Below the pieces are notes generated by a model. It saw only the letters and a list, made by a program, of their open reading frames with translations. It was not told where the DNA came from and searched no databases. From NCBI GenBank assembly GCA_022709795.1, contig JAKLID010000002.1, forward strand, positions 1 through 51,761: a stretch of 51,761 nucleotides of DNA, written 5' to 3'. This document shows positions 11,218 through 50,800 of this stretch, in pieces. The position numbers were made by a program, and so were the translations under genes. Numbering within the stretch: the stretch's first letter is position 1; the number at the start of each line of letters is the position of its first letter. Origin of the DNA: Patescibacteria group bacterium (GTDB taxonomy: Bacteria; Patescibacteriota; Patescibacteriia; UBA2196; GWA2-42-15).

Positions 11218-11220
11218 AAG

Positions 11221-11276
11221 CCAGAAACCAGAAACTAGATATTAGTAATCAGAAACAAGATATCAGAAATCAGGGG
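11221..11276. repeat. Left heptad-repeat arm of cassette 1
   Basis: Eight in-phase heptads: ccagaaa|ccagaaa|ctagata|ttagtaa|tcagaaa|caagata|tcagaaa|tcagggg. Confidence 0.8.
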
Positions 11277-11294
11277 GAAAATAAAATTTATTTC

Positions 11295-11669
11295 ATGTCA
11301 CCTCTGCCTTTAAACCAACTTAAAATATATCAATTGAATCGGGAATATAGTCGCGGCGGTTGGCAAATTTATGAGCGTTTGACCTGGGAAATTATTAAAA
11401 CTATGGGGGACCAAATGATTAGAAGTATTGATTCTGTTGGCGCCAATATTGCTGAGGGCTATGGTCGTTATCATTATTTAGACAAAATCAAATTTTATTA
11501 CAATGCTCGCGGTTCATTATTTGAGTCAAAATATTGGCTGGATCTGATGTATGAAAGAAAAATAATAGAATCTGGTTGCTACCTTGCATTAATGAATCTA
11601 TATCAAAACATAGTTAAAGGCCTAAACGGTCTTATCTCTTCCAACTATCGTACCAAGTTCTCTTCCTGA
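11295..11669 (+). CDS. Four-helix-bundle protein (23S rRNA intervening-sequence protein / Avd-like family)
   Basis: SVGANIAEGYGRYHYLDKIKFYYNARGSLFESKYWL is the hallmark central motif of the family. The gene is AT-rich and sits in the loop between complementary repeat arms. Confidence 0.85.
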   Translation: MSPLPLNQLKIYQLNREYSRGGWQIYERLTWEIIKTMGDQMIRSIDSVGANIAEGYGRYHYLDKIKFYYNARGSLFESKYWLDLMYERKIIESGCYLALMNLYQNIVKGLNGLISSNYRTKFSS

Positions 11670-11670
11670 T

Positions 11671-11754
11671 TCCTAGTTTCTAACCTCCGATCCCCCTCGC
11701 TTCTGTATTTTTGTTTGTTTTTCCTGGTTTCTGATATCTGATTTCTGGTTTCTT
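11671..11754. repeat. Right heptad-repeat arm of cassette 1 (complement of 11221-11276)
   Basis: Twelve in-phase heptads, ending ...tttcctg|gtttctg|atatctg|atttctg|gtttctt. ccccct and tttctga/tttctgg are reverse complements of the left-arm words. Confidence 0.8.
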
Positions 11755-11765
11755 TCTTAATTTCG

Positions 11766-18073: not shown

Positions 18074-18270
18074 AATACAAATTACGAATAGGTACAACTA
18101 TACAAATATAAGCCTTGAATTTACACCGCTAGCCGATAGAACAAAGTTTAATATTGTATTAATGTATTATTCGTATATTTGTAAAATATTTGTAATTTGT
18201 ATTACTTAATTTACTTATCTTGCTTACTGCTTATCTTGCTTATTGCTTAACTCGCTTACTGCTTAACTCT
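18074..18270. repeat. Heptad/16-mer repeat hairpin region forming the typA leader (empty stem)
   Basis: Left arm tacaaat|tacgaat..., right arm ...atttgta|atttgta, then ttatcttgcttactgc|ttatcttgcttattgc|ttaactcgcttactgc. Confidence 0.6.
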
Positions 18271-21470: not shown

Positions 21471-21625
21471 TTTCCCCTCCTCTCTGAGGAGGGGATTAAG
21501 GGGTGGTGGGAGATTTCCACTGCAACCTTCTAATTAATTCGCCGGTAGCAGCTGTCCCACCACCCCGGCTCCCCCGCAGGGCTCAATGCGGGGTTCGCCA
21601 CCCCTCCTCAGAGAGGAGGGGAAAT
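21471..21625. repeat. GC-rich palindromic intergenic element, copy B (complete)
   Basis: Terminal hairpins cccctcctc-tct-gaggagggg (21474-21494) and cccctcctc-aga-gaggagggg (21601-21621). Internal ggggtggtgggag / ctgtcccaccacccc pair around an AT core taattaatt. Confidence 0.7.
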
Positions 21626-22255: not shown

Positions 22256-22311
22256 AATTAGTTTTTTGTTTTATTTGTATATTTGTAATTAATTCGTAAT
22301 TCGTAGATAAT

Positions 22312-26024: not shown

Positions 26025-26190
26025 AAAAGTAAAAAGGCAAATGGCAAAATTTAATAGTAACTCGTAACTAGTAATTAGTAAAAGGAAAATTTTAATTTTA
26101 TAATTTTTAATTTTTAAATAAGGTCTAAATCTAAAATTTTTAAAATTAGAATTTAAGGTTTATTTAAAAATTAAAAATTCAAAAATTGTG
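26025..26190. repeat. Heptad-phased AT-rich inverted-repeat spacer (empty stem)
   Basis: Fourteen consecutive in-phase heptads all start with A (26025-26122: aaaagta|aaaaggc|aaatggc|aaaattt|aatagta|actcgta|actagta|attagta|...). The complementary arm is ...taaaaat|taaaaat|tcaaaaa. Confidence 0.65.
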
Positions 26191-32704: not shown

Positions 32705-34510
32705 ATGTTGAAAACTTTTTTTCAAAAAATAGCCAGCCACAAATTTATCACCCTTATTCTCATCGCTGTTATCGCTGGGGCTGGTTATTATTACCAAAAA
32801 AACTCGGGTAGCACGGCCGTCACTCGCTATGTTCTAGCGCAGGTAGAAAAAGGCACGCTCATTACTTCCATTTCCGGTACCGGGCAGATTTCCGCCTCGA
32901 GTCAGGTAGAGATAAAGGCCCAAGCCTCGGGCGAAGTCATTTCTCTGCCAGTTAAAGCCGGTCAAGAAGTGAAATCCGGGGCGCTTTTGGCCCAACTAGA
33001 TTCTTCTGATGCTTACAAGAGTGTTCGTGATGCCAAGACCGCTTTGGAAACTGCCCAGTTAGAATTAGAAGAGGCCCTGGAGCCGGCAAGCGAATTGACT
33101 TTACTCCAAGCAGAAAGTTCATTACTTCAGGCCAAACAAACCAAAACCACGGCGGAAAAAAATTTAGTTAAATCTTATGAGGACGGCTTTAATACCGTCT
33201 CCAGTGCCTTTTTGGAATTACCCAGCATTATCTCCGGCTTGCGTGATATTCTATACAGCAACTCTTACACCCAAACGCAGAACAACATGGACTATTATGC
33301 TGATTCAGCCAAGTATTTTGATGACAAAATTTTGACTTACCGCGACGACGCCAAGGCTGCTTATGAAAAAGCCCGTCTCGCCTATGATGACAATTTTAGT
33401 GTTTATAAAACTACCAACCGGACGTCAGACGAGGCGACGGTTGAAAGCTTGATCAACCAAACATATGAAACTGTGCGCCTGATTTCCGAGTCGGTCAAAA
33501 GCACAAATAATCTGATTCAATTTTATCAGGATAAATTTACCAGCCGTGGTCTGACACCCCAAAGCTTGGCCGCTACTCAGTTATCCAGTTTGAGTTCTTA
33601 TTCCAGTAAAACCAATACGCACCTGTCCAGTCTGCTGACAGCCAAAAATAATATTCCCGACTACAAAGAAGATATTACCGATGCCGAACGCACCATCAAA
33701 GAAAAAGAACTTTCCTTGACAGAAGTGAAAGCCGATACTGACGAACTGACCATCCGCGCCAAAAAAATAGCTATCCAGCAAAAGCAAGACGCACTGGCCT
33801 CAGCCCAGGAAACACTGGCTGACTATTCTGTTCGTGCGCCTTTTAATGGCGTGATTGCCGACGTTAGCGCCAAAAAAGGTGACACCCTTTCTTCCGGCTC
33901 TACCGTTGCCATGATTATTACCAAAGACAGTATCGCCGAGATTACCTTAAACGAGGTTGATGTGGCCAAAGTAAAAGTTGGCCAGAAAGCGAACCTCACT
34001 TTTGACGCCCTTGAAGATTTGACTATCGCCGGTTCGGTCGCTGAAGTTGACACTATTGGTACTGCCTCATCCGGGGTGGTCAGCTATACAGTTCAAATTT
34101 CTTTTGATACTCAAGATGAACGAATCAAGCCCGGTATGAGCGTTACCGCCGTTATAATTTTGGAAGCCAAAACCGATGTTTTACTGGTGCCTTCCGCCGC
34201 GGTCAAGTCAGCCGGCGAAGATTCTTATGTTGAATTAGTGGCGAACGATGGTTCTTTTGATGTCACCGCCGCCGAAAGCACTGGCGTTACCCTAGTTACT
34301 GCGCCGACTAAACAAACGGTCACTGTTGGTTCTTCTGATGACACCAATACGGAAATAGTGAGTGGTGTGGTAGCAGGTGATCTGGTTATTACCCGTACTA
34401 TCAATGCCAGTACTACCCAAAAAACTACTGCCAATTCTACTACCAACGCGTCAGGTAATGCCGTACGCGTTCAAGGTTTTAGCGCTGGTGGCCCCCCGGG
34501 CGGTTTCTAA
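32705..34510 (+). CDS. HlyD/MacA-type periplasmic adaptor (membrane fusion) protein
   Basis: N-terminal TM, lipoyl-like halves (GEVISLPVKAGQEVKSGALLAQLD ... APFNGVIADVSAKKGDTL), a long coiled-coil hairpin, and a beta-barrel region. Confidence 0.8.
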   Translation: MLKTFFQKIASHKFITLILIAVIAGAGYYYQKNSGSTAVTRYVLAQVEKGTLITSISGTGQISASSQVEIKAQASGEVISLPVKAGQEVKSGALLAQLDSSDAYKSVRDAKTALETAQLELEEALEPASELTLLQAESSLLQAKQTKTTAEKNLVKSYEDGFNTVSSAFLELPSIISGLRDILYSNSYTQTQNNMDYYADSAKYFDDKILTYRDDAKAAYEKARLAYDDNFSVYKTTNRTSDEATVESLINQTYETVRLISESVKSTNNLIQFYQDKFTSRGLTPQSLAATQLSSLSSYSSKTNTHLSSLLTAKNNIPDYKEDITDAERTIKEKELSLTEVKADTDELTIRAKKIAIQQKQDALASAQETLADYSVRAPFNGVIADVSAKKGDTLSSGSTVAMIITKDSIAEITLNEVDVAKVKVGQKANLTFDALEDLTIAGSVAEVDTIGTASSGVVSYTVQISFDTQDERIKPGMSVTAVIILEAKTDVLLVPSAAVKSAGEDSYVELVANDGSFDVTAAESTGVTLVTAPTKQTVTVGSSDDTNTEIVSGVVAGDLVITRTINASTTQKTTANSTTNASGNAVRVQGFSAGGPPGGF

Positions 34511-34573
34511 AACAAGAACCAGTTATTCTCCAGCCTTCCTTGTTTTATTTTCTTGTATTTTTATTATTAATTT

Positions 34574-35263
34574 ATGATTGAATGTAAAAACGTCTCCAAA
34601 ATTTATAAAAGTTCGAGTGTGGAAACCACTGCTCTAAAAAATGTTTCTTTTCAGATTAAAGATGGCGAGTTTGTCGCCATTATGGGCCCGTCTGGTTCTG
34701 GTAAATCCACCCTGATGCATATCTTGGGCGCCTTGGATACGCCCACCGCCGGCGAATATTTTTTGGATGGCAAAAACGTTTCTGAGCTTTCCGATGATGA
34801 GCTGGCTGATATTCGTAAGAATAAAATTGGTTTTATTTTTCAGTCTTTTAATTTATTGCCGCGCGCGACCGTACTCCGTAATGTGATGTTGCCTTTGGTT
34901 TATGCCAATGTGGAAAAAAGTCAAAGGGAAGAGCAAGCCAGGGAGGCCTTGGCTGATGCCGGTCTAGATGCCACAAATTATAGCCATCTTTCTAATCAGC
35001 TTTCCGGCGGACAAATGCAGCGGGTGGCCGTTGCCCGCGCGCTGGTCAATAATCCCACACTTATTTTGGCCGATGAGCCGACCGGCAACCTAGATACCAA
35101 AACCGGTGATGTTGTTATGGGTACTTTCCGGGCCCTTAATGAAGAAAAAAAAAGAACCATTGTTATTATTACTCACGAGCGCGACGTGGCTGAATATACC
35201 AATAGGATTATTGAAATTAGGGATGGGGAAATTATTAGGGACAGAGAGATACACAGAGCATAG
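34574..35263 (+). CDS. ABC transporter ATP-binding protein (MacB/LolD-type)
   Basis: Walker [10 protein letters not shown], signature [15 protein letters not shown], Walker [12 protein letters not shown]. Confidence 0.95.
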
Positions 35264-35300
35264 AAGCACAAAAAACACAGAAAACACAAAAGCACAAAAC
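35245..35300. repeat. Left A/C-rich arm of cassette 2 (overlaps the ABC ATPase stop codon)
   Basis: ...aaaaacacagaaaacacaaaagcacaaaac. The reverse complement of the right arm matches cacagaaaaca. Confidence 0.6.
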
Positions 35301-35303
35301 AAT

Positions 35304-35699
35304 ATGTCAACTGAATTCCAAAATAGGCTCAAAACACTAATGGACGAATATATTTATTTTGTCTATTGTGTCACTCAAAAATTTCCGAAAGAAGAATTAT
35401 ATTCCAGTGTCTCTCAATGGCGGAGATCTACTTTATCTATAATATTAAACTATATTGAAGGCTATGCTAGGAAGAAATCACTGGTTCAATTAAATTTTTA
35501 TGAGATATCATATGGTTCGCTCAGAGAATCGAAATATCTTTTATACTTTTCCCATAAAATAAATTTCATTACTAACGAAGAATATAGAAAAGGCTTTGAA
35601 TTAAGTGAAGAAATTGGCAAAATGCTCTGGTCGGAAATAACCAAACTTCAGAATAGTATAGATTACACAAATAAAAATAAAACTCCAATAATTAAGTGA
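35304..35699 (+). CDS. Four-helix-bundle protein (23S rRNA IVS protein / Avd-like family)
   Basis: ILNYIEGYARKKSLVQLNFYEISYGSLRESKYLL matches the family core motif. ATG 35304 is chosen because the upstream part of the ORF overlaps the ABC gene. Confidence 0.8.
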   Translation: MSTEFQNRLKTLMDEYIYFVYCVTQKFPKEELYSSVSQWRRSTLSIILNYIEGYARKKSLVQLNFYEISYGSLRESKYLLYFSHKINFITNEEYRKGFELSEEIGKMLWSEITKLQNSIDYTNKNKTPIIK

Positions 35700-35720
35700 T
35701 TTTTTGTTTTCTGTGATTTT
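35697..35720. repeat. Right arm of cassette 2
   Basis: tgattttttgttttctgtgatttt lies directly before the permease ATG at 35721. Confidence 0.6.
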
Positions 35721-36935
35721 ATGAAATTTACTGATTTATTCCAAGAAACATTTTTCGCCATTTTAGCCAATAAGGTCCGTTCCGGCCTGACTATTTTGGG
35801 TATTGTCATCGGCATCGGCTCAGTCATTGCCATGGTTTCCATCGGCCAGGGTTCAGCCAAGTCCATTACCGACCGTGTTGAATCTCTGGGCACCAACTTA
35901 TTGACTGTTATGCCTGGATCGCAAAGAGGACAACTAGTTCGCGGCGGTATAGGCTCGGCTACTACTCTAGCCTTGGAAGATGCTGAAGCGATTAAAACTG
36001 TCAGCGGCGTTAAAACAGTTGCCCCAACAGTTAGCACTCGCAAACAGATTACTATCAAAGGTAGCAATACCAATAGTTCTATTTACGGCATTGACGCCAG
36101 TTATTTTTCTGTCAAATCAATCACCATGGAGCTCGGTAGCCCGTTTACCGAAATACAAATCAAATCAAAAAACAAAGTCGCTATTATCGGCCCGACCACT
36201 CGTGATACTTTGTACGGTGAAGGCTATGATCCGGTCGGTCAAAAAATTCGAATTGACGGCCAGGAATATACCGTGATTGGCGTTACTGAGAGTAAAGGTG
36301 GCACTGGCTTTGGCAGCTCTGACGATTTGGTTTACGTTCCTCTTGGTACTGCCCAGCAATATCTGATCGGCAACAGTAAACTTAGTAATATCAGCGTGGA
36401 AGTGATCAGCGCGGAATTGATGGATTCTACTGAAGAGGCGATTTCCGCTTTATTACTACAACGCCACAATATCAGCGACGCCGCCAATGCCGACTTTAGC
36501 ATTATGAATCAAGCCGATATGCTCTCCGCTATGACTGATATGACCAGTACTTTGACTTTACTCCTTGGCTCCATCGCCGGCATTTCCCTCATTGTTGGCG
36601 GTATTGGTATTATGAATATGATGTTAACTACTGTCACTGAGCGCACTCGTGAAATCGGTCTGCGCAAAGCCATTGGCGCCAAGCGTGGTGATATCAGTCT
36701 GCAGTTTTTGGCCGAAGCAGTCACCCTGACTTTTATCAGTGGTATTATTGGTATTTTACTCGGCTGGCTCTTGAGTTATCTTGTTGCCAGATTTGGCAGT
36801 ATCACCACGAGCATCTCGCCCCAGTCAGTTATCCTGGCTTTTGGTGTTTCCGGCGCCATCGGTATTATTTTTGGTTATTACCCAGCCCGCCGTGCTGCCA
36901 AGTTAAATCCGATTGAAGCCCTAAGATATGAATAA
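35721..36935 (+). CDS. ABC transporter permease (MacB/FtsX-type)
   Basis: TM1, a large periplasmic domain, and a C-terminal FtsX domain with TERTREIGLRKAIGA. Confidence 0.9.
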   Translation: MKFTDLFQETFFAILANKVRSGLTILGIVIGIGSVIAMVSIGQGSAKSITDRVESLGTNLLTVMPGSQRGQLVRGGIGSATTLALEDAEAIKTVSGVKTVAPTVSTRKQITIKGSNTNSSIYGIDASYFSVKSITMELGSPFTEIQIKSKNKVAIIGPTTRDTLYGEGYDPVGQKIRIDGQEYTVIGVTESKGGTGFGSSDDLVYVPLGTAQQYLIGNSKLSNISVEVISAELMDSTEEAISALLLQRHNISDAANADFSIMNQADMLSAMTDMTSTLTLLLGSIAGISLIVGGIGIMNMMLTTVTERTREIGLRKAIGAKRGDISLQFLAEAVTLTFISGIIGILLGWLLSYLVARFGSITTSISPQSVILAFGVSGAIGIIFGYYPARRAAKLNPIEALRYE

Positions 36936-37060
36936 CAATTTCCAAATCCCAATTTCCAATTTCCAAATAAATTCCAATAATCAATTTCCAATTAGCCAAA
37001 TTAATATTTTGAATTTGTAATTTGGGGTTTATTTGGAAATTGTTTCTTAGCGATTGGAGC
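36936..37060. repeat. Heptad-phased inverted-repeat spacer without ORF (empty stem)
   Basis: caatttc|caaatcc|caatttc|caatttc|caaataa|attccaa|taatcaa|tttccaa|ttagcca, then the complementary arm ...gaatttgtaatttggggtttatttggaaattg. Confidence 0.7.
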
Positions 37061-39908: not shown

Positions 39909-39951
39909 TGTTATACTAAATACTTAATACTAAATACTTAATACCAAAAAT

Positions 39952-42339: not shown

Positions 42340-42471
42340 ATCTTAATATTACCCCAATCACCATTACTGTCAAATACCAAAGGGAATAAACAAAACCGCT
42401 CCTCAGGGCGGCTTTATTCATAAATCATAAATCCTAAATCCTATTTTTTGCCTTTTTCCTTTTTCCTTTAT

Positions 42472-44645: not shown

Positions 44646-44673
44646 ACCCCTCTTACCAAAAGAGGGGTTTTTG
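44646..44673 (+). terminator. Intrinsic terminator after the orphan pilin
   Basis: cccctct-taccaaa-agagggg plus ttttt. Confidence 0.7.
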
Positions 44674-44680: not shown

Positions 44681-44701
44681 AAAGACAAGAAAATCAAGCT
44701 C

Positions 44702-44750
44702 CAAGATACAAGATACAATTTTCAAATAATATCCAATATTAAAATTACCA
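44702..44750. repeat. Left heptad arm of cassette 3
   Basis: caagata|caagata|caatttt|caaataa|tatccaa|tattaaa|attacca. Confidence 0.75.
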
Positions 44751-44760
44751 ATAGTTTGCT

Positions 44761-45123
44761 ATGGATTGCTTGCCTCCCCATTATGATCTGGAAGAAAGAA
44801 CTACTCATTTTGCCAAAAGGGTTGTTGGATTGTGTGTGGCTCTGCCCAAGAATGAAATTAATCGCCCGTTAATCAGCCAGGTAATTAGATCAGCTGGTTC
44901 AATAGGGGCTAACTACAGAGAGGCCAATGATGCGCTAGGAGACAAAGATTTTATTCATAGAATAAAAATTGCGCGTAAAGAGTGCAAAGAAACACTGCAT
45001 TGGCTGGAAATTGTAGAAGAGGCCAATCCAGTGCTTGTCATGAGGATGCAGAATTTAAAACAGGAAGCGGTAGAATTGAAAAATATTTTATCATCAATTA
45101 TTATCAAAAAGGGAAAGAAGTAG
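44761..45123 (+). CDS. Four-helix-bundle protein (23S rRNA IVS protein / Avd-like family)
   Basis: RSAGSIGANYREANDALGDKDFIHRIKIARKECKETLHWLEI is the family core motif. Confidence 0.85.
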   Translation: MDCLPPHYDLEERTTHFAKRVVGLCVALPKNEINRPLISQVIRSAGSIGANYREANDALGDKDFIHRIKIARKECKETLHWLEIVEEANPVLVMRMQNLKQEAVELKNILSSIIIKKGKK

Positions 45124-45156
45124 TGATTTAAAGTTGAAATTTACAATTTATCCTAG

Positions 45157-47244
<2,088 letters not shown>

Positions 47245-47338: not shown

Positions 47339-47339
47339 G

Positions 47340-47409
47340 TGAAGACGGCAGGGATCGAACCTGCGACCTCCGGCTGGGGCCGGTGCTCTACCAACTGAGC
47401 TACGTCCGC
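47340..47409 (-). tRNA. tRNA-like gene with a shortened anticodon arm (Trp-like body, possible pseudogene)
   Basis: Good D arm (gctc-agttggta-gagc) and T arm (gcagg-ttcgatc-cctgc). The anticodon region ccgg-ccccag-ccgg is only 14 nt, not 17. The acceptor has a C-U mismatch and a G-U pair. Total length is 70 nt. Confidence 0.45.
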
Positions 47410-47555
47410 CATGGGGGTTTGGCGCCAGGTCACCCCCACTTTGCCATCTCCTAGTCCTAGAAGATGGTTTTAAATTTAGGTGCGATACTCCCTCCAGACC
47501 AGCCAGTCTCGGCTGTTAAATACCTCCGTGGAAATAGGAGTATCACACCGTTTTG

Positions 47556-47629
47556 AGCGGGCGACATGATTCGAACCTGCGACTGGGGACTTGGCAAGTC
47601 CCCATTCTAACCGCTGAATTTACGCCCGC
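47556..47629 (-). tRNA. tRNA-Gly (anticodon GCC)
   Basis: Acceptor gcgggcg/cgcccgc, discriminator U, anticodon arm gggac-ttGCCaa-gtccc. The T stem gcagg/catgt has one mismatch and one G-U. The D stem is irregular. Confidence 0.75.
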
Positions 47630-47650
47630 TTTTTTGTGTTAATTTTATAG

Positions 47651-47720
47651 TGAGGGCGACGGGACTCGAACCCGTGATAGACAACGTGTAAGATTGCCTA
47701 TTTATAACCTTTACGCCCTC
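47651..47720 (-). tRNA. tRNA-Val (anticodon UAC) with a reduced D arm
   Basis: Acceptor gagggcg/cgccctc, anticodon arm gcaat-ctTACac-gttgt, T arm acggg-ttcgagt-cccgt. Only 16 nt lie between the acceptor and the anticodon stem, with no obvious D stem. Total length is 70 nt. Confidence 0.65.
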
Positions 47721-47800: not shown

Positions 47801-47848
47801 CATATTATCTTTATTCTTGTATTTTTATATTCTTGTTTTTTTATTTTT

Positions 47849-48139
47849 ATGTCCCTCGATATCCAACAAATTGACCATCTCGCTCATCTTGCCCGCCTGG
47901 ATCTGACCGCAGGGGAAAAAGAGTTGTATGCCAGCCAGCTGGCGGCTGTTTTTGATTATTTCCAAAAACTTCAAGCAGTTGACACTACCGGCCTGGAACC
48001 CATGAGCCAGGTGATTGAACTTCAAAATATTTTTTACGCTGATGACATTACTAGCCACCCGGAAGTCAGCCAGCAGAAAATCATTGACAACGCGCCAGCT
48101 CAATCTGGCCGTCATCTCAAAGTCAAAAAAATATTATGA
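47849..48139 (+). CDS. gatC: Asp/Glu-tRNA amidotransferase subunit C
   Basis: IDHLAHLARLDLT..E......L..V..Y...L..VDT. The stop overlaps the gatA start (ATGA). Confidence 0.9.
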   Translation: MSLDIQQIDHLAHLARLDLTAGEKELYASQLAAVFDYFQKLQAVDTTGLEPMSQVIELQNIFYADDITSHPEVSQQKIIDNAPAQSGRHLKVKKIL

Positions 48140-50008: not shown

Positions 50009-50695
50009 ATGGACAACCTTACTCCCGTTGCCGCACCCCCCAAAAAAAATACTCACCAGACACTCTTTATATTTTTGTTTGGCCTAGTTTTGGGCATCGC
50101 TATTTTTTCCAGCTACCATTATTATCAGTTGGCCCATCGCATGGACAATCAAAATTATGAGTCCACAGAGCCCACTCCGGTTTTTTTTAATATCAGTGAG
50201 GAGGATCATATCTGGGGCGCCAAAGACGCCAAAGTCACTCTGGTAGTTTTCAGCGATCTGGCCTGCCCTTATTCCCGCGAATATTTTGCCAATCTACAGG
50301 AACTTATGAATACCCGCGCTGATCAGATGCGCATTGTCTGGCGTCATTTGCCAGTCAGCTTGAATAATGTCGCTTCTGTCTCTGCCGCCATCGCCGCCGA
50401 GTGCGCTGGTGAGCAGGGCAAATTTTTTGAATATATTGCCGAACTTTATCCCCATCAAGATCAATATGGCCCAGAGTTTTATGCCGCTAGCGCTAGCGAG
50501 CTGGGTTTGAATGTTGATAATTTTTCCGCCTGCGTTTCTAGCGGTAAATATGATACCAAGATCGAAGCTGATTATAATGAAGGTCTGGCCAAAAATATCG
50601 CTGGCACCCCAGCTAGCTTTTTGGACGGCCGTTATCTCCCCGGCGCTCTGCCCTTGAGCCAGCTGGAAGCCCTGATTGATCCGCTCATCAAATAA
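50009..50695 (+). CDS. DsbA-family thioredoxin-fold protein with CPYS (monothiol) active-site motif
   Basis: N-terminal TM. VVFSDLACPYSREYF stands where DsbA has CxxC (tgc cct tat tcc at 50264-50275). AAECAGEQGKFFEY is typical of the family. Confidence 0.8.
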   Translation: MDNLTPVAAPPKKNTHQTLFIFLFGLVLGIAIFSSYHYYQLAHRMDNQNYESTEPTPVFFNISEEDHIWGAKDAKVTLVVFSDLACPYSREYFANLQELMNTRADQMRIVWRHLPVSLNNVASVSAAIAAECAGEQGKFFEYIAELYPHQDQYGPEFYAASASELGLNVDNFSACVSSGKYDTKIEADYNEGLAKNIAGTPASFLDGRYLPGALPLSQLEALIDPLIK

Positions 50696-50711
50696 CTACG
50701 AATTTTTAGTT

Positions 50712-50800
50712 TTATAATTTTTAAATAAATTCTAATTTTTAATGTTTAAAAATTTAGATTTAAGTTTTATTTATAAAATTAAAAATTAAAAATTATTTTT
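50712..50800. repeat. Heptad-phased AT-rich inverted-repeat spacer (empty stem)
   Basis: ...tttaatg|tttaaaa|atttaga|tttaagt|tttattt|ataaaat|taaaaat|taaaaat|tattttt. The 26-mer aaaattaaaaattaaaaattattttt (50775-50800) is identical to 49728-49753. Confidence 0.6.

What the first reader, a model, noticed from the sequence alone, without database searches (positions are those of the whole stretch)
35245..35720. IVS-like cassette 2 splits a MacB-type ABC ATPase gene from its permease gene
A second four-helix-bundle gene (35304-35699) sits between the ATPase (stop at 35261-35263) and the permease (ATG 35721). Its left arm (…aaaaacacagaaaacacaaaagcac…) begins inside the last codons of the ATPase gene. 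Its right arm (ttttttgttttctgtgatttt) ends exactly at the permease start. ATPase and permease genes of this type are normally adjacent or translationally coupled, so this looks like an insertion that the operon tolerates. It also implies the arm sequence contributes the ATPase C-terminal residues (…EIHRA).
Basis: partly seen in the sequence, partly recalled or inferred. Interest (0 to 1): 0.7.

Follow-up and report, generated by a model that had tools for sequence, protein, structure and literature searches.

The report
Mobile hairpin-flanked gene splits transporter operon
A small gene of the kind found inside ribosomal-RNA "intervening sequences", bracketed by two complementary repeat arms, has been inserted exactly between the stop and start codons of two normally overlapping transporter genes in a Patescibacteria (CPR) genome. 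Relatives of it have been copied into many other gene junctions, which suggests that this long-enigmatic element type also lives in ordinary operons.

Summary
ORF 35304-35699 is a PF05635/TIGR02436 four-helix-bundle protein. It lies between a MacB-type ABC ATPase (stop 35261-35263) and its permease (ATG 35721). It is flanked by a 25-nt inverted repeat (35271-35295 / 35696-35720, 88% complementary), which is significant against shuffles. One detail is wrong: the complementary left arm starts 8 nt after the ATPase stop, not inside the gene.

It is an insertion. In 76 orthologous operons without it, 67 junctions overlap or are at most 25 nt. Cassette-bearing operons fall in three separate clades. 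Homologous cassettes (53-76% aa identity) sit flush between co-oriented genes in dozens of unrelated housekeeping contexts. Their arms are built from about 8-nt tandem repeats, as in the Coxiella 23S IVS. One pair (L089/L090) has DNA-identical ORFs in two unrelated contexts, with homology ending inside the arms, so the unit was copied recently.

The gene (dN/dS 0.04) and the arms are under purifying selection.

Best reading: a promoterless, mobile IVS-type stem-loop cassette. Its RNA stem probably makes the insertion harmless, through RNase III-type excision or by bringing stop and start together. Both that role and the mobility mechanism are inferred, not shown. This is a new variant of a known kind.

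The parts
32705..34510 (+). HlyD-type membrane-fusion protein gene, first gene of the transporter operon
   Evidence: PF13437 HlyD_3 and PF16576. The same gene order occurs in L081, L086 and L169.
34574..35263 (+). MacB-type ABC ATPase gene. The stop TAG is at 35261-35263. The conserved core ends at ...[11 protein letters not shown] and is followed by the 6-residue tail REIHRA.
   Evidence: PF00005 E=8e-36. C-termini of 80 orthologues were compared.
35264..35303 (+). Left spacer, which is the A-rich 5' arm. It is a tandem array with period 8 and consensus AAAAACAC (TRF 35271-35299). The complementary arm proper is 35271-35295. The FHB start codon follows 8 nt later.
   Evidence: It is 85% identical to L081 (34 of 40), against 52-57% identity at third codon positions in the neighbouring genes.
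35304..35699 (+). Four-helix-bundle (S23p / 23S_rRNA_IVP) gene, promoterless, lying in the loop of the stem. Its stop codon TGA (35697-35699) lies inside the right arm.
   Evidence: PF05635 and TIGR02436. AF2 model and Foldseek matches to 2GSC, 2RLD and 4DWL. dN/dS 0.037 against L081.
35696..35720 (+). Right, T-rich 3' arm, complementary to 35271-35295. It ends on the base before the permease ATG.
35721..36935 (+). MacB-type permease gene
   Evidence: PF12704 MacB_PCD and PF02687 FtsX. Its N-terminus aligns with orthologues from residue 1.
36957..37042 (+). ORF-less hairpin whose arms are built from 7-nt tandem repeats (CAATTTC). It sits directly after the permease stop. It has the same architecture as the cassette arms but carries no gene.
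   Evidence: RNA fold -28.2 kcal/mol, z = -5.2.
11218..11758 (+). Sister cassette 1. PF05635 ORF 11295-11669, arms 11218-11273 / 11703-11758 (repeat unit AGAAACC). The left arm starts on the base after the PilC stop codon.
   Evidence: fold z = -3.0; 0 of 2000 shuffles.
44695..45230 (+). Sister cassette 3. PF05635 ORF 44761-45123, arms 44695-44729 / 45196-45230 (repeat unit CAAGATA). It lies in the leader of the ligA-like gene, whose likely start is at 45246.
   Evidence: 0 of 2000 shuffles.

Best explanation
This is a mobile, promoterless stem-loop cassette of the type known from 23S rRNA intervening sequences (IVS). It consists of a four-helix-bundle (S23p/PF05635, Avd-like) gene carried in the loop of a long hairpin. 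The two arms of the hairpin are complementary arrays of about 8-nt tandem repeats, A-rich on the 5' side and U-rich on the 3' side.

Shown:
- The cassette is inserted flush into an intercistronic junction that is normally overlapping or very short.
- It is always co-oriented with the host genes, so it rides on operon transcription.
- The whole unit (arms plus ORF) has been copied between unrelated loci.
- Both the gene and the arms are conserved by selection.

Inferred:
- In the operon transcript the arms pair. This places the ATPase stop 8 nt from the 5' base of the stem and the permease AUG directly at its 3' base.
- As in rRNA IVSs, the 20-50 bp duplex is most likely cut by RNase III. Cutting would excise the FHB mRNA and release separate ATPase and permease mRNAs, the latter with a very short leader. 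That is workable in a genome that has essentially no Shine-Dalgarno sites.
- An alternative or additional role is that the stem preserves stop-start proximity for reinitiation.
- Either way the stem is what makes the insertion harmless. This would explain why such elements occur only where RNA continuity is dispensable: rRNA helix tips, cistron junctions and tRNA leaders.

The mobility mechanism is unknown. There is no transposase, no target duplication, and the arms are not conserved between cassettes.
For: Insertion:
- 76 orthologous junctions lack the gene, and 67 of them overlap or are at most 25 nt.
- No FHB gene was found in 637 kb around those operons, against 3 in this 52-kb window.
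- Occupied junctions fall in three separate clades of an ATPase+permease tree: window+L081, L089, and L096=L169.

Mobility:
- L089 (ATPase|permease junction) and L090 (upstream of tRNA-Ser genes) have ORFs with zero DNA differences.
- Their homology starts inside the left-arm repeats and ends inside the right-arm repeats. Beyond that the flanks are unrelated.
- Each of the two contexts is internally consistent, so this is not an assembly chimera.
- Eighty metagenomic homologues have neighbours that fall into 75 clusters and 108 Pfam families, nearly all housekeeping.

Architecture across the family:
- Cognate arms score a median of 15, against 8 for non-cognate pairs.
- Period 8 dominates: 40 of 67 left arms and 39 of 67 right arms.
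- The repeat unit AAAACAC / GTGTTTT tracks FHB similarity.
- The right arm ends a median of 6 nt from the downstream ATG. The upstream stop lies a median of 2.5 nt before the start of the left arm.
- 49 of 59 loci with two called neighbours read + + +. No genuine case is antisense to both neighbours.

Selection:
- FHB dN/dS is 0.037 with saturated dS.
- The left arm is 85% conserved, against 52-57% at third codon positions.
- The stem is retained in L081.

Link to IVS:
- The protein belongs to PF05635/TIGR02436.
- The fold matches the S23p structures 2GSC and 2RLD.
- The Coxiella 23S IVS has a 28-bp terminal stem cut by RNase III, an S23p ORF, and tandem heptamer repeats upstream of that ORF (PMC4990558).
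- 23S_rRNA_IVP ORFs occur in CPR rRNA insertions (PMC11270868).
- ORF-less hairpins of the same build occupy the same junction in L010, L040 and L060, and other spacers in this window. This parallels the short ORF-less rRNA IVSs.

Translation context:
- The genome lacks Shine-Dalgarno motifs (4 of 52 genes).
Against: - There is no direct evidence that the stem acts at the RNA level. Among arm mismatches, sense-strand G.U (46) is not enriched over A.C (41).
- The whole-cassette fold z-score is only -1.2.
- The duplex is A-U rich with three mismatches.
- RNase III cleavage, FHB expression and operon processing are all untested. No rnc gene lies in the window (uninformative).
- None of 20 related loci scanned sits in an rRNA gene, so the link to true IVSs rests on protein family, architecture and literature.
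- Only one recent-copy pair was found. Gene conversion between two pre-existing cassettes could mimic it.
- The tree is neighbour-joining without support values.
- Occupancy at this junction is old (dS is saturated between the window and L081). The cassette could therefore by now be domesticated rather than merely tolerated.
Confidence: 0.6

Rival explanations
1. The four-helix-bundle gene is an ancestral or functional member of the HlyD-ATPase-permease operon, for example an accessory subunit or regulator of the transporter. Other lineages would then have lost it.
For: - It is retained at the same junction, under strong purifying selection, between two lineages whose synonymous sites are saturated (window against L081).
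- It also occurs at this junction in L089 and in L096/L169.
- In L092 it sits at the HlyD|ATPase junction of the same operon type.
Against: - It is absent from all 76 evaluable orthologous operons in GTDB genomes, including the closest one (L001).
- Operons that carry it are polyphyletic.
- FHBs at this junction are no more alike than FHBs in unrelated contexts, and L089's is DNA-identical to a copy upstream of tRNA genes.
- Two further cassettes in the same window sit next to pilus genes and ligA.
Confidence: 0.07
2. The cassette is an IVS-type insertion, but the arms do not act through RNase III excision. Instead the stem juxtaposes the upstream stop and the downstream start. Alternatively, translation simply relays ATPase -> FHB -> permease by termination-reinitiation, so that coupling survives the 457-nt insertion.
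For: - The stem base puts the ATPase stop 8 nt and the permease AUG 0 nt from the helix.
- Across the family, arms run from the upstream stop to the downstream start.
- Spacers are short: 40 nt from the ATPase stop to the FHB ATG, and 21 nt from the FHB stop to the permease ATG.
- Ancestral junctions are ATGA overlaps, which indicates coupling.
- The genome has no Shine-Dalgarno sites.
Against: - This is purely structural inference, and no bacterial precedent was tested here.
- A ribosome terminating at 35263 would already unwind part of the stem.
- Cassettes also sit upstream of tRNA genes and in 5' leaders, where no upstream cistron exists.
Confidence: 0.2
3. It is a classical DNA transposon derivative, a MITE-like element with terminal inverted repeats mobilised by a transposase encoded elsewhere. 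In that case the RNA stem is irrelevant.
For: - Terminal inverted repeats flank the unit, and it has been copied between loci.
- The mismatch spectrum shows no RNA-strand bias.
Against: - The arms of the three cassettes in this one window are unrelated in sequence: AGAAACC, AAAACAC and CAAGATA units. A single transposase could not recognise them all.
- The arms are tandem repeat arrays of variable copy number, not defined termini.
- No target-site duplication is seen at 35264-35270 / 35721 onwards, or in L089/L090.
- No transposase occurs among 87 neighbouring genes. The two Phage_integrase hits are Xer-like.
- Strict co-orientation with host transcription is not expected for DNA-level insertion.
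Confidence: 0.06
4. The gene is the Avd accessory protein of a diversity-generating retroelement (DGR), and the repeats belong to that system.
For: - There are weak matches to bAvd (PF22296, 34.8 bits) and to DivGenRetAVD (NF033474, 26.8 bits).
- The predicted structure matches Avd 4DWL and 8UB7 with TM about 0.73.
- From general knowledge, CPR genomes are rich in DGRs.
Against: - Both matches are below the curated cut-offs (40 and 80 bits).
- No reverse transcriptase or template/variable repeat pair lies in the operon or among the larger genes of the window.
- The S23p structures match better than Avd does.
Confidence: 0.03
5. The inverted repeat is a chance product of low-complexity A-rich and T-rich spacers around a small gene that carries no further meaning.
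For: - The arms are low-complexity.
- The whole-region fold z-score is -1.2.
- The window's arm score (15-16) is below the 95th percentile of non-cognate family pairs, which is 17.
Against: - Composition-preserving shuffles reach the score in 6 of 2000 and 1 of 2000 trials, and 0 of 526 window controls do.
- Non-cognate pairs score high only because family members share the same repeat unit.
- The same architecture recurs in about 50 independent cassettes and in both sister cassettes of the window.
- The arms are conserved above the neutral rate.
Confidence: 0.02

Closest known systems
ORF-containing intervening sequences (IVS) of 23S rRNA genes (Coxiella burnetii helix-45 IVS with S23p; Leptospira IVS; also 23S_rRNA_IVP ORFs in CPR rRNA insertions)
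   Same: - Same protein family (PF05635/TIGR02436).
- Same size class, about 430-540 nt.
- The ORF sits in the loop of a terminal stem of about 25-55 bp.
- The 5' arm is built of short tandem repeats next to the start codon. Coxiella has GACAGAT heptamers.
- ORF-less hairpin versions coexist.
- Distribution is sporadic and suggests horizontal spread.
   Different: - Here the host is not rRNA. The cassette sits between protein-coding cistrons, and in relatives upstream of tRNA genes or in 5' leaders.
- It replaces a translationally coupled junction, and in some lineages its arm is read as the C-terminus of the upstream protein.
- The ORF is under strong purifying selection, whereas the Coxiella ORF is reported to be decaying.
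- RNase III processing has been demonstrated for rRNA IVSs and is only inferred here.
Avd, the accessory variability determinant of diversity-generating retroelements (PDB 4DWL, 8UB7)
   Same: Homologous four-helix-bundle fold (TM about 0.73). Avd is a nucleic-acid/RT-binding pentamer, which hints at an RNA-binding role.
   Different: No reverse transcriptase and no template/variable repeats are present. The sequence scores are below the family cut-offs.
Intercistronic palindromic repeats (REP/BIME, REPINs) of proteobacterial operons
   Same: They are hairpin-forming repeats placed between co-transcribed genes. They are copied around the genome and can alter the stability of flanking mRNA segments. 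This resembles the ORF-less hairpins seen here.
   Different: REP elements share a conserved sequence that is recognised by RAYT transposases, and they carry no gene. Here the arm sequence differs from copy to copy, is a tandem array, and encloses an ORF.
Free-standing homing-endonuclease gene cassettes between conserved phage genes, and integron gene cassettes
   Same: They are small promoterless selfish genes inserted precisely between conserved, co-oriented genes, with presence/absence polymorphism among relatives.
   Different: - The FHB protein has no recognisable nuclease or recombinase domain.
- There is no attC/IntI system.
- The inverted repeat is split across the ORF rather than forming one attC site.

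Membership tests
PF05635 / TIGR02436 four-helix-bundle (S23p, 23S rRNA IVS protein) family | Sequence match above the curated thresholds | tested here: met
   PF05635 scores 83.1 bits against a cut-off of 33.8. TIGR02436 scores 83.5 bits against 24.
PF05635 / TIGR02436 four-helix-bundle (S23p, 23S rRNA IVS protein) family | Up-down four-helix-bundle fold like 2GSC and 2RLD | tested here: met
   AF2 model with pLDDT 94.8 and helices 4-24, 29-54, 59-85, 91-126. Foldseek match to 2GSC with TM 0.78-0.91 and rmsd 0.8. The pentameric assembly was not tested.
23S rRNA intervening sequence (IVS) | Located inside a 23S rRNA gene (helix 25 or helix 45) | tested here: not met
   There is no rRNA in the window (Rfam). 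The element lies between an ABC ATPase gene and a permease gene. No rRNA was found in 20 related loci.
23S rRNA intervening sequence (IVS) | Bordered by complementary sequences that form a terminal stem enclosing the element | tested here: met
   Arms of 25 nt, 88% complementary, closing the MFE and centroid folds. Significant against shuffles. The feature is family-wide.
23S rRNA intervening sequence (IVS) | Excised from the precursor RNA by RNase III without religation | not testable with these tools
   This needs transcript end mapping or in vitro cleavage. Only the length of the duplex (about 24 bp) is compatible.
23S rRNA intervening sequence (IVS) | Sporadic, horizontally spread distribution with empty sites in relatives | tested here: met
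   76 empty orthologous junctions, occupied junctions in three clades, and the identical L089/L090 copies.
DGR accessory protein Avd | Match to the Avd models above threshold, and a neighbouring reverse transcriptase with TR/VR repeats | tested here: not met
   NF033474 scores 26.8 bits against 80. PF22296 scores 34.8 bits against 40. No RT was found among the operon genes or the larger ORFs of the window.
TIR transposon / MITE | Terminal inverted repeats conserved between copies, target-site duplication, and a cognate transposase | tested here: not met
   The arms of the three cassettes in the window are unrelated. No direct repeat is seen at the borders. No transposase family occurs among 87 neighbours.
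Integron gene cassette | A single attC site 3' of a promoterless ORF, arrayed next to an intI gene | tested here: not met
   The inverted repeat is split on both sides of the ORF. The cassettes are solitary, sit inside housekeeping operons, and have no integrase adjacent.

The most novel reading that the evidence does not exclude
IVS elements may not be rRNA-specific. They may be a general class of mobile 'RNA-neutral' stem-loop cassettes, and the rRNA IVSs would be one special case.

On this reading such elements colonise any transcribed spacer where RNA continuity is dispensable: cistron junctions, tRNA leaders and rRNA helix tips. Their repeat-built stem acts as a ligation-free, self-excising device.

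Their Avd-like four-helix-bundle protein would be the element's own mobility or maintenance factor. It might act as a cofactor for an RNA-templated copying step, as Avd does for the DGR reverse transcriptase.
Probability: 0.15. Interest if true: 0.85.

Novelty: new variant of a known kind. Interest (0 to 1): 0.62.

Why it matters
rRNA intervening sequences and their S23p/four-helix-bundle ORFs have been known for about 30 years. No function has been assigned to the protein and no mechanism of spread has been established.

Several results here turn a curiosity of ribosomal genes into a tractable class of elements:
- The same architecture (repeat-built stem plus PF05635 ORF) is inserted seamlessly into operon junctions and tRNA leaders of Patescibacteria.
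- Empty, filled and ORF-less states all occur at one orthologous junction.
- At least one copy event was caught in the act.
- Both the arms and the gene show purifying selection.

This gives concrete predictions:
- RNase III-dependent ends should map within the arms.
- Permease expression should depend on arm complementarity.
- FHB should bind its own arms.

It also explains unexpected 400-500 nt gaps and odd C-terminal tails (KHENTENT, PQNTKTQKH) in CPR gene calls. It may further account for part of the abundant 7-8 nt tandem repeats in CPR intergenic regions.

Tried and rejected
1. Sense-strand G.U against A.C mismatches in 50 stems, used to separate RNA-level from DNA-level selection. The result was 46 against 41, which is inconclusive.
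2. An Rfam scan of 20 related loci for an rRNA context. Only tRNAs were found.
3. A promoter and terminator scan of 32-38 kb. Nothing exceeded shuffled expectation, and there is no intrinsic terminator in the cassette.
4. A search for other FHB genes in the 80 orthologous GTDB loci, using tblastn and an HMM. None was found.
5. A search for further identical-ORF/different-context pairs among 80 metagenomic loci. Only L089/L090 turned up.
6. Lookups of P0120 and P0057 for the same protein in several contexts. Each occurs in one context only.
7. A test of whether the window's tRNA-Ser locus is the empty counterpart of the L090 site. It is not homologous.
8. A tblastn search for RNase III in the window. 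Nothing was found, which is uninformative.
9. Seven literature searches on IVS, S23p, PF05635, TIGR02436 and four-helix-bundle proteins with CPR. No description of such cassettes between protein genes was found. The library does not cover most subscription journals.
10. The hypotheses of DGR, integron, MITE and HEPN-like RNase. HEPN was rejected because Pfam at E<=10 returns only PF05635 and bAvd.
Full report
**1. What is in the sequence**

The window comes from a Patescibacteria (CPR) chromosome. The nearest genomes are Candidatus Magasanikbacteria, whose permease is up to 72% identical.

At 32705-36935 lies a HlyD / ABC-ATPase / MacB-permease operon. A 457-nt interval separates the ATPase stop (TAG 35261-35263) from the permease start (ATG 35721). 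That interval holds one ORF, 35304-35699 (131 aa).

- The ORF matches PF05635 '23S rRNA-intervening sequence protein' (83 bits, cut-off 33.8) and TIGR02436 'four helix bundle protein' (83.5 bits, cut-off 24).
- An AlphaFold2 model (pLDDT 94.8) is a four-helix bundle. Its best solved matches are the S23p-family proteins 2GSC and 2RLD, followed by the DGR protein Avd.
- The ORF is bracketed by a 25-nt inverted repeat, 35271-35295 / 35696-35720, 88% complementary.
- The left arm is a period-8 tandem array with consensus AAAAACAC.
- The right arm contains the FHB stop codon and ends on the base before the permease ATG.
- The repeat is not a composition artefact. Shuffles of just the two spacers reach its score in 6 of 2000 trials, shuffles of 60-nt flanks in 1 of 2000, and 526 control placements across the window never do.
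- The arms close both the minimum-free-energy and the centroid folds.
- GC falls from 0.45-0.50 to about 0.29 across the insert.

One detail of the finding is wrong. The complementary arm begins 8 nt after the ATPase stop, not within the gene.

**2. It is an insertion**

I fetched 80 orthologous operons from GTDB genomes. None has an FHB gene anywhere in its roughly 9 kb, by tblastn or by an HMM. Of the 76 junctions that could be evaluated:

- 32 overlap, and 25 of those are ATGA;
- 35 are 0-25 nt apart;
- 9 are longer, from 42 to 1925 nt.

The cassette does occur at the same junction elsewhere:

- in a sister lineage, L081-L085 (permease 90%, ATPase 84%, FHB 80-83% identical);
- in L089;
- in L096/L098, which are the same as L169-L178.

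In a neighbour-joining tree of ATPase+permease these three groups fall in three different clades, interleaved with empty operons (no support values). In L092 the cassette sits one junction upstream, between HlyD and the ATPase.

**3. It belongs to a mobile family with a fixed architecture**

Eighty metagenomic loci encode FHBs 53-76% identical to this one.

- Their neighbours fall into 75 clusters. Eighty-seven non-redundant neighbours hit 108 Pfam families. These include pilins, PilC, ArgRS, KsgA, ClpB, RuvC, Pth and glycosyltransferases. No transposases are among them.
- Of 59 loci with two called neighbours, 49 are co-oriented on both sides. The apparent exceptions are ends of transcription units or spurious small ORFs. 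L090, for example, is followed by tRNA genes on the same strand.
- Flanking arms are the rule. Cognate arms score a median of 15 against 8 for non-cognate combinations, even though family members share repeat units.
- The arms are tandem arrays with period 8 (40 of 67 left, 39 of 67 right) or period 7.
- The unit differs between cassettes (AAAACACG, CAAGAAAG, CATTAAAA, TTGAAGC and others), yet each right arm is the complement of its own left arm.
- Units of the AAAACAC / GTGTTTT type track FHB similarity, so arms and ORF are inherited together.
- The arms fill the spacers exactly. The right arm ends a median of 6 nt before the downstream ATG, and the upstream stop lies a median of 2.5 nt before the start of the left arm. 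In 11 of 26 cases the stop lies inside or beyond the start of the arm.

The decisive case is L089 against L090, two contigs from one metagenome. L089 carries the cassette at the ATPase|permease junction. L090 carries it between a 170-aa gene and tRNA-Ser(GCU)/tRNA-Ser(UGA).

- The two ORFs have no DNA difference over 360 nt.
- Homology begins inside the left-arm repeats, including a nested GC-rich mini-hairpin, and ends inside the right-arm GTGTTTT repeats.
- Everything outside is unrelated.
- Both contexts are internally consistent. L089 has ATPase on one side and permease on the other. L090 matches the conserved context of L091, L107 and L133. An assembly chimera is therefore unlikely.
- This is a recent copy of the whole unit. 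At the least it is gene conversion between cassette sites.

The window itself carries two more cassettes with unrelated arms:

- cassette 1 at 11218-11758, after pilC;
- cassette 3 at 44695-45230, in the ligA leader.

**4. Selection**

- Between the window and L081, synonymous sites are saturated. FHB has dN/dS 0.037, as low as the ATPase (0.065) and the permease (0.059).
- The left arm is 85% identical (34 of 40), while third codon positions of the flanking genes are 52-57% identical. Both sequences still fold with the closing stem.
- The protein and the arms are therefore both functional for something. This is not a decaying scar.

**5. The ATPase tail**

- In L096 the ATPase ends ...RDTKTLKHENTENTRPLA*.
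- In L089 it ends ...ADNKNTKTLGF...PQNTKTQKH*.
- Both tails are translations of the AAAACAC repeats, which begin directly after the conserved ...DG.I..D core.
- In this window and in L081 the ATPase keeps a short ordinary tail (REIHRA*, QLISR*) and stops 8 or 3 nt before the arm.
- The pattern fits insertion immediately 5' of the permease ATG of an overlapping junction. In that case the upstream frame runs into the arm, and the downstream ATG sits flush with the right arm.

**6. Relation to known elements**

The Coxiella 23S IVS is 428 nt long. It has a 28-bp terminal stem cut by RNase III and an S23p ORF. It also has tandem heptamer repeats (GACAGAT) between the stem and the start codon. Ideas that IVSs are mobile have never been resolved (PMC4990558). 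23S_rRNA_IVP ORFs also occur in CPR 16S and 23S insertions (PMC11270868).

The element here shares the protein family, the size, the terminal stem and the repeat-built arm. It fails the defining location, because it is not in rRNA.

ORF-less hairpins with repeat-built arms complete the parallel with short, ORF-less rRNA IVSs:

- they occupy the same ATPase|permease junction in L010, L040 and L060 (z = -4.1 to -4.7);
- they occupy other spacers in this window, at 36957-37042 (directly after the permease), 26087-26187 (before tRNA-Asn) and 50690-50798.

Other classes were considered and rejected:

- It is not a DGR. The Avd scores are sub-threshold and there is no RT.
- It is not a MITE or TIR element. 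The arms are unrelated between copies, and there is no target duplication and no transposase.
- It is not an integron cassette.

Seven full-text searches found no description of such cassettes between protein genes. That library is incomplete.

**7. How it most likely works**

Shown:
- The cassette is promoterless and sense-oriented, and it is inserted flush between cistrons.
- Arms and ORF are copied as a unit.
- Both are under selection.

Inferred (about 0.6 that the stem acts in RNA, about 0.4-0.5 that RNase III is the agent):
- The arms pair in the operon transcript.
- The duplex is cleaved as in rRNA IVSs. This would release the FHB mRNA and separate ATPase and permease mRNAs.
- Because the genome has essentially no Shine-Dalgarno sites (4 of 52), a permease mRNA with a very short leader should still be translatable.

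A rival, which could also act alongside, is that the stem keeps the stop (8 nt from the helix) and the start (0 nt) adjacent. Alternatively ribosomes could relay ATPase -> FHB -> permease across 40-nt and 21-nt spacers. The G.U against A.C test did not discriminate between RNA-level and DNA-level selection (46 against 41).

The mobility mechanism remains open. Candidates are recombination within similar repeat arrays acting as hairpin 'landing pads', or an RNA-templated route with the Avd-like protein as cofactor.

**8. Verdict**

- The element is best described as an IVS-type mobile stem-loop cassette living in an operon junction, which makes it a new variant of a known kind.
- Interest is moderate to high. 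It widens the habitat of IVS elements and offers a natural set of empty, hairpin-only and filled states at one junction for testing what IVSs and S23p proteins do.

Noticed in passing
window 44695-45230: A third PF05635 cassette: ORF 44761-45123, arms 44695-44729 / 45196-45230, 86% complementary. It lies in the leader of the ligA-like gene (likely start 45246). It is preceded by a terminator-like hairpin at 44647-44672 and contains small nested hairpins at 45160-45195.
   Followed up: partly
window 36957-37042; 26087-26187; 50690-50798: ORF-less long hairpins whose arms are 7-8 nt tandem repeats (fold z = -5.2, -4.7 and -3.7). One sits directly after the permease stop and one lies 4 nt before tRNA-Asn. 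Many other 7-8 nt tandem arrays lie in intergenic spacers (13731, 18075-18265, 22272-22305, 39913-39948, 42418-42469, 47812-47850).
   Followed up: partly
window 21471-21494 / 21601-21624: A perfect 24-nt inverted repeat, 106 nt apart, between the murB-like gene and the next gene. Each arm is itself palindromic (CCCCTCCTC...GAGGAGGGG). It is GC-rich, unlike the cassette arms.
   Followed up: no
L089 2925-2975, L090 2935-2985, L096 2968-2985, L097 arms: GC-rich mini-hairpins (for example CGGCTTCGCCCCGC...GCGGGGCTTCGCC) are nested inside the AT-rich cassette arms. In some cases they are in one arm only, and in L097 they are mirrored in both. They may be a second, smaller inserted element.
   Followed up: no
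L090, L091, L107, L133, L134 (FHB about 3000-3370, tRNA genes 60-100 nt downstream): Homologous cassettes sit upstream of tRNA-Ser(GCU)-tRNA-Ser(UGA), next to a conserved divergent 170-aa gene, in several lineages. Transcribed tRNA leaders are therefore also hosts.
   Followed up: partly
L012 2076-4000; L025 about 3694-3970: Other material can occupy the same ATPase|permease junction. L012 has two extra genes, a 373-aa AAA-ATPase-like gene and a 167-aa gene. L025 has two palindromes built on CCCGTTAGAAA (277 nt).
   Followed up: partly
whole window: Shine-Dalgarno-like motifs are nearly absent upstream of genes (4 of 52 crude gene calls). Leaders are AT-rich.
   Followed up: partly
window 47339-47720: ARAGORN reports a tRNA with an undetermined 2-nt anticodon at 47339-47409, and it misses the third tRNA that Rfam calls at 47651-47720.
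   Followed up: no
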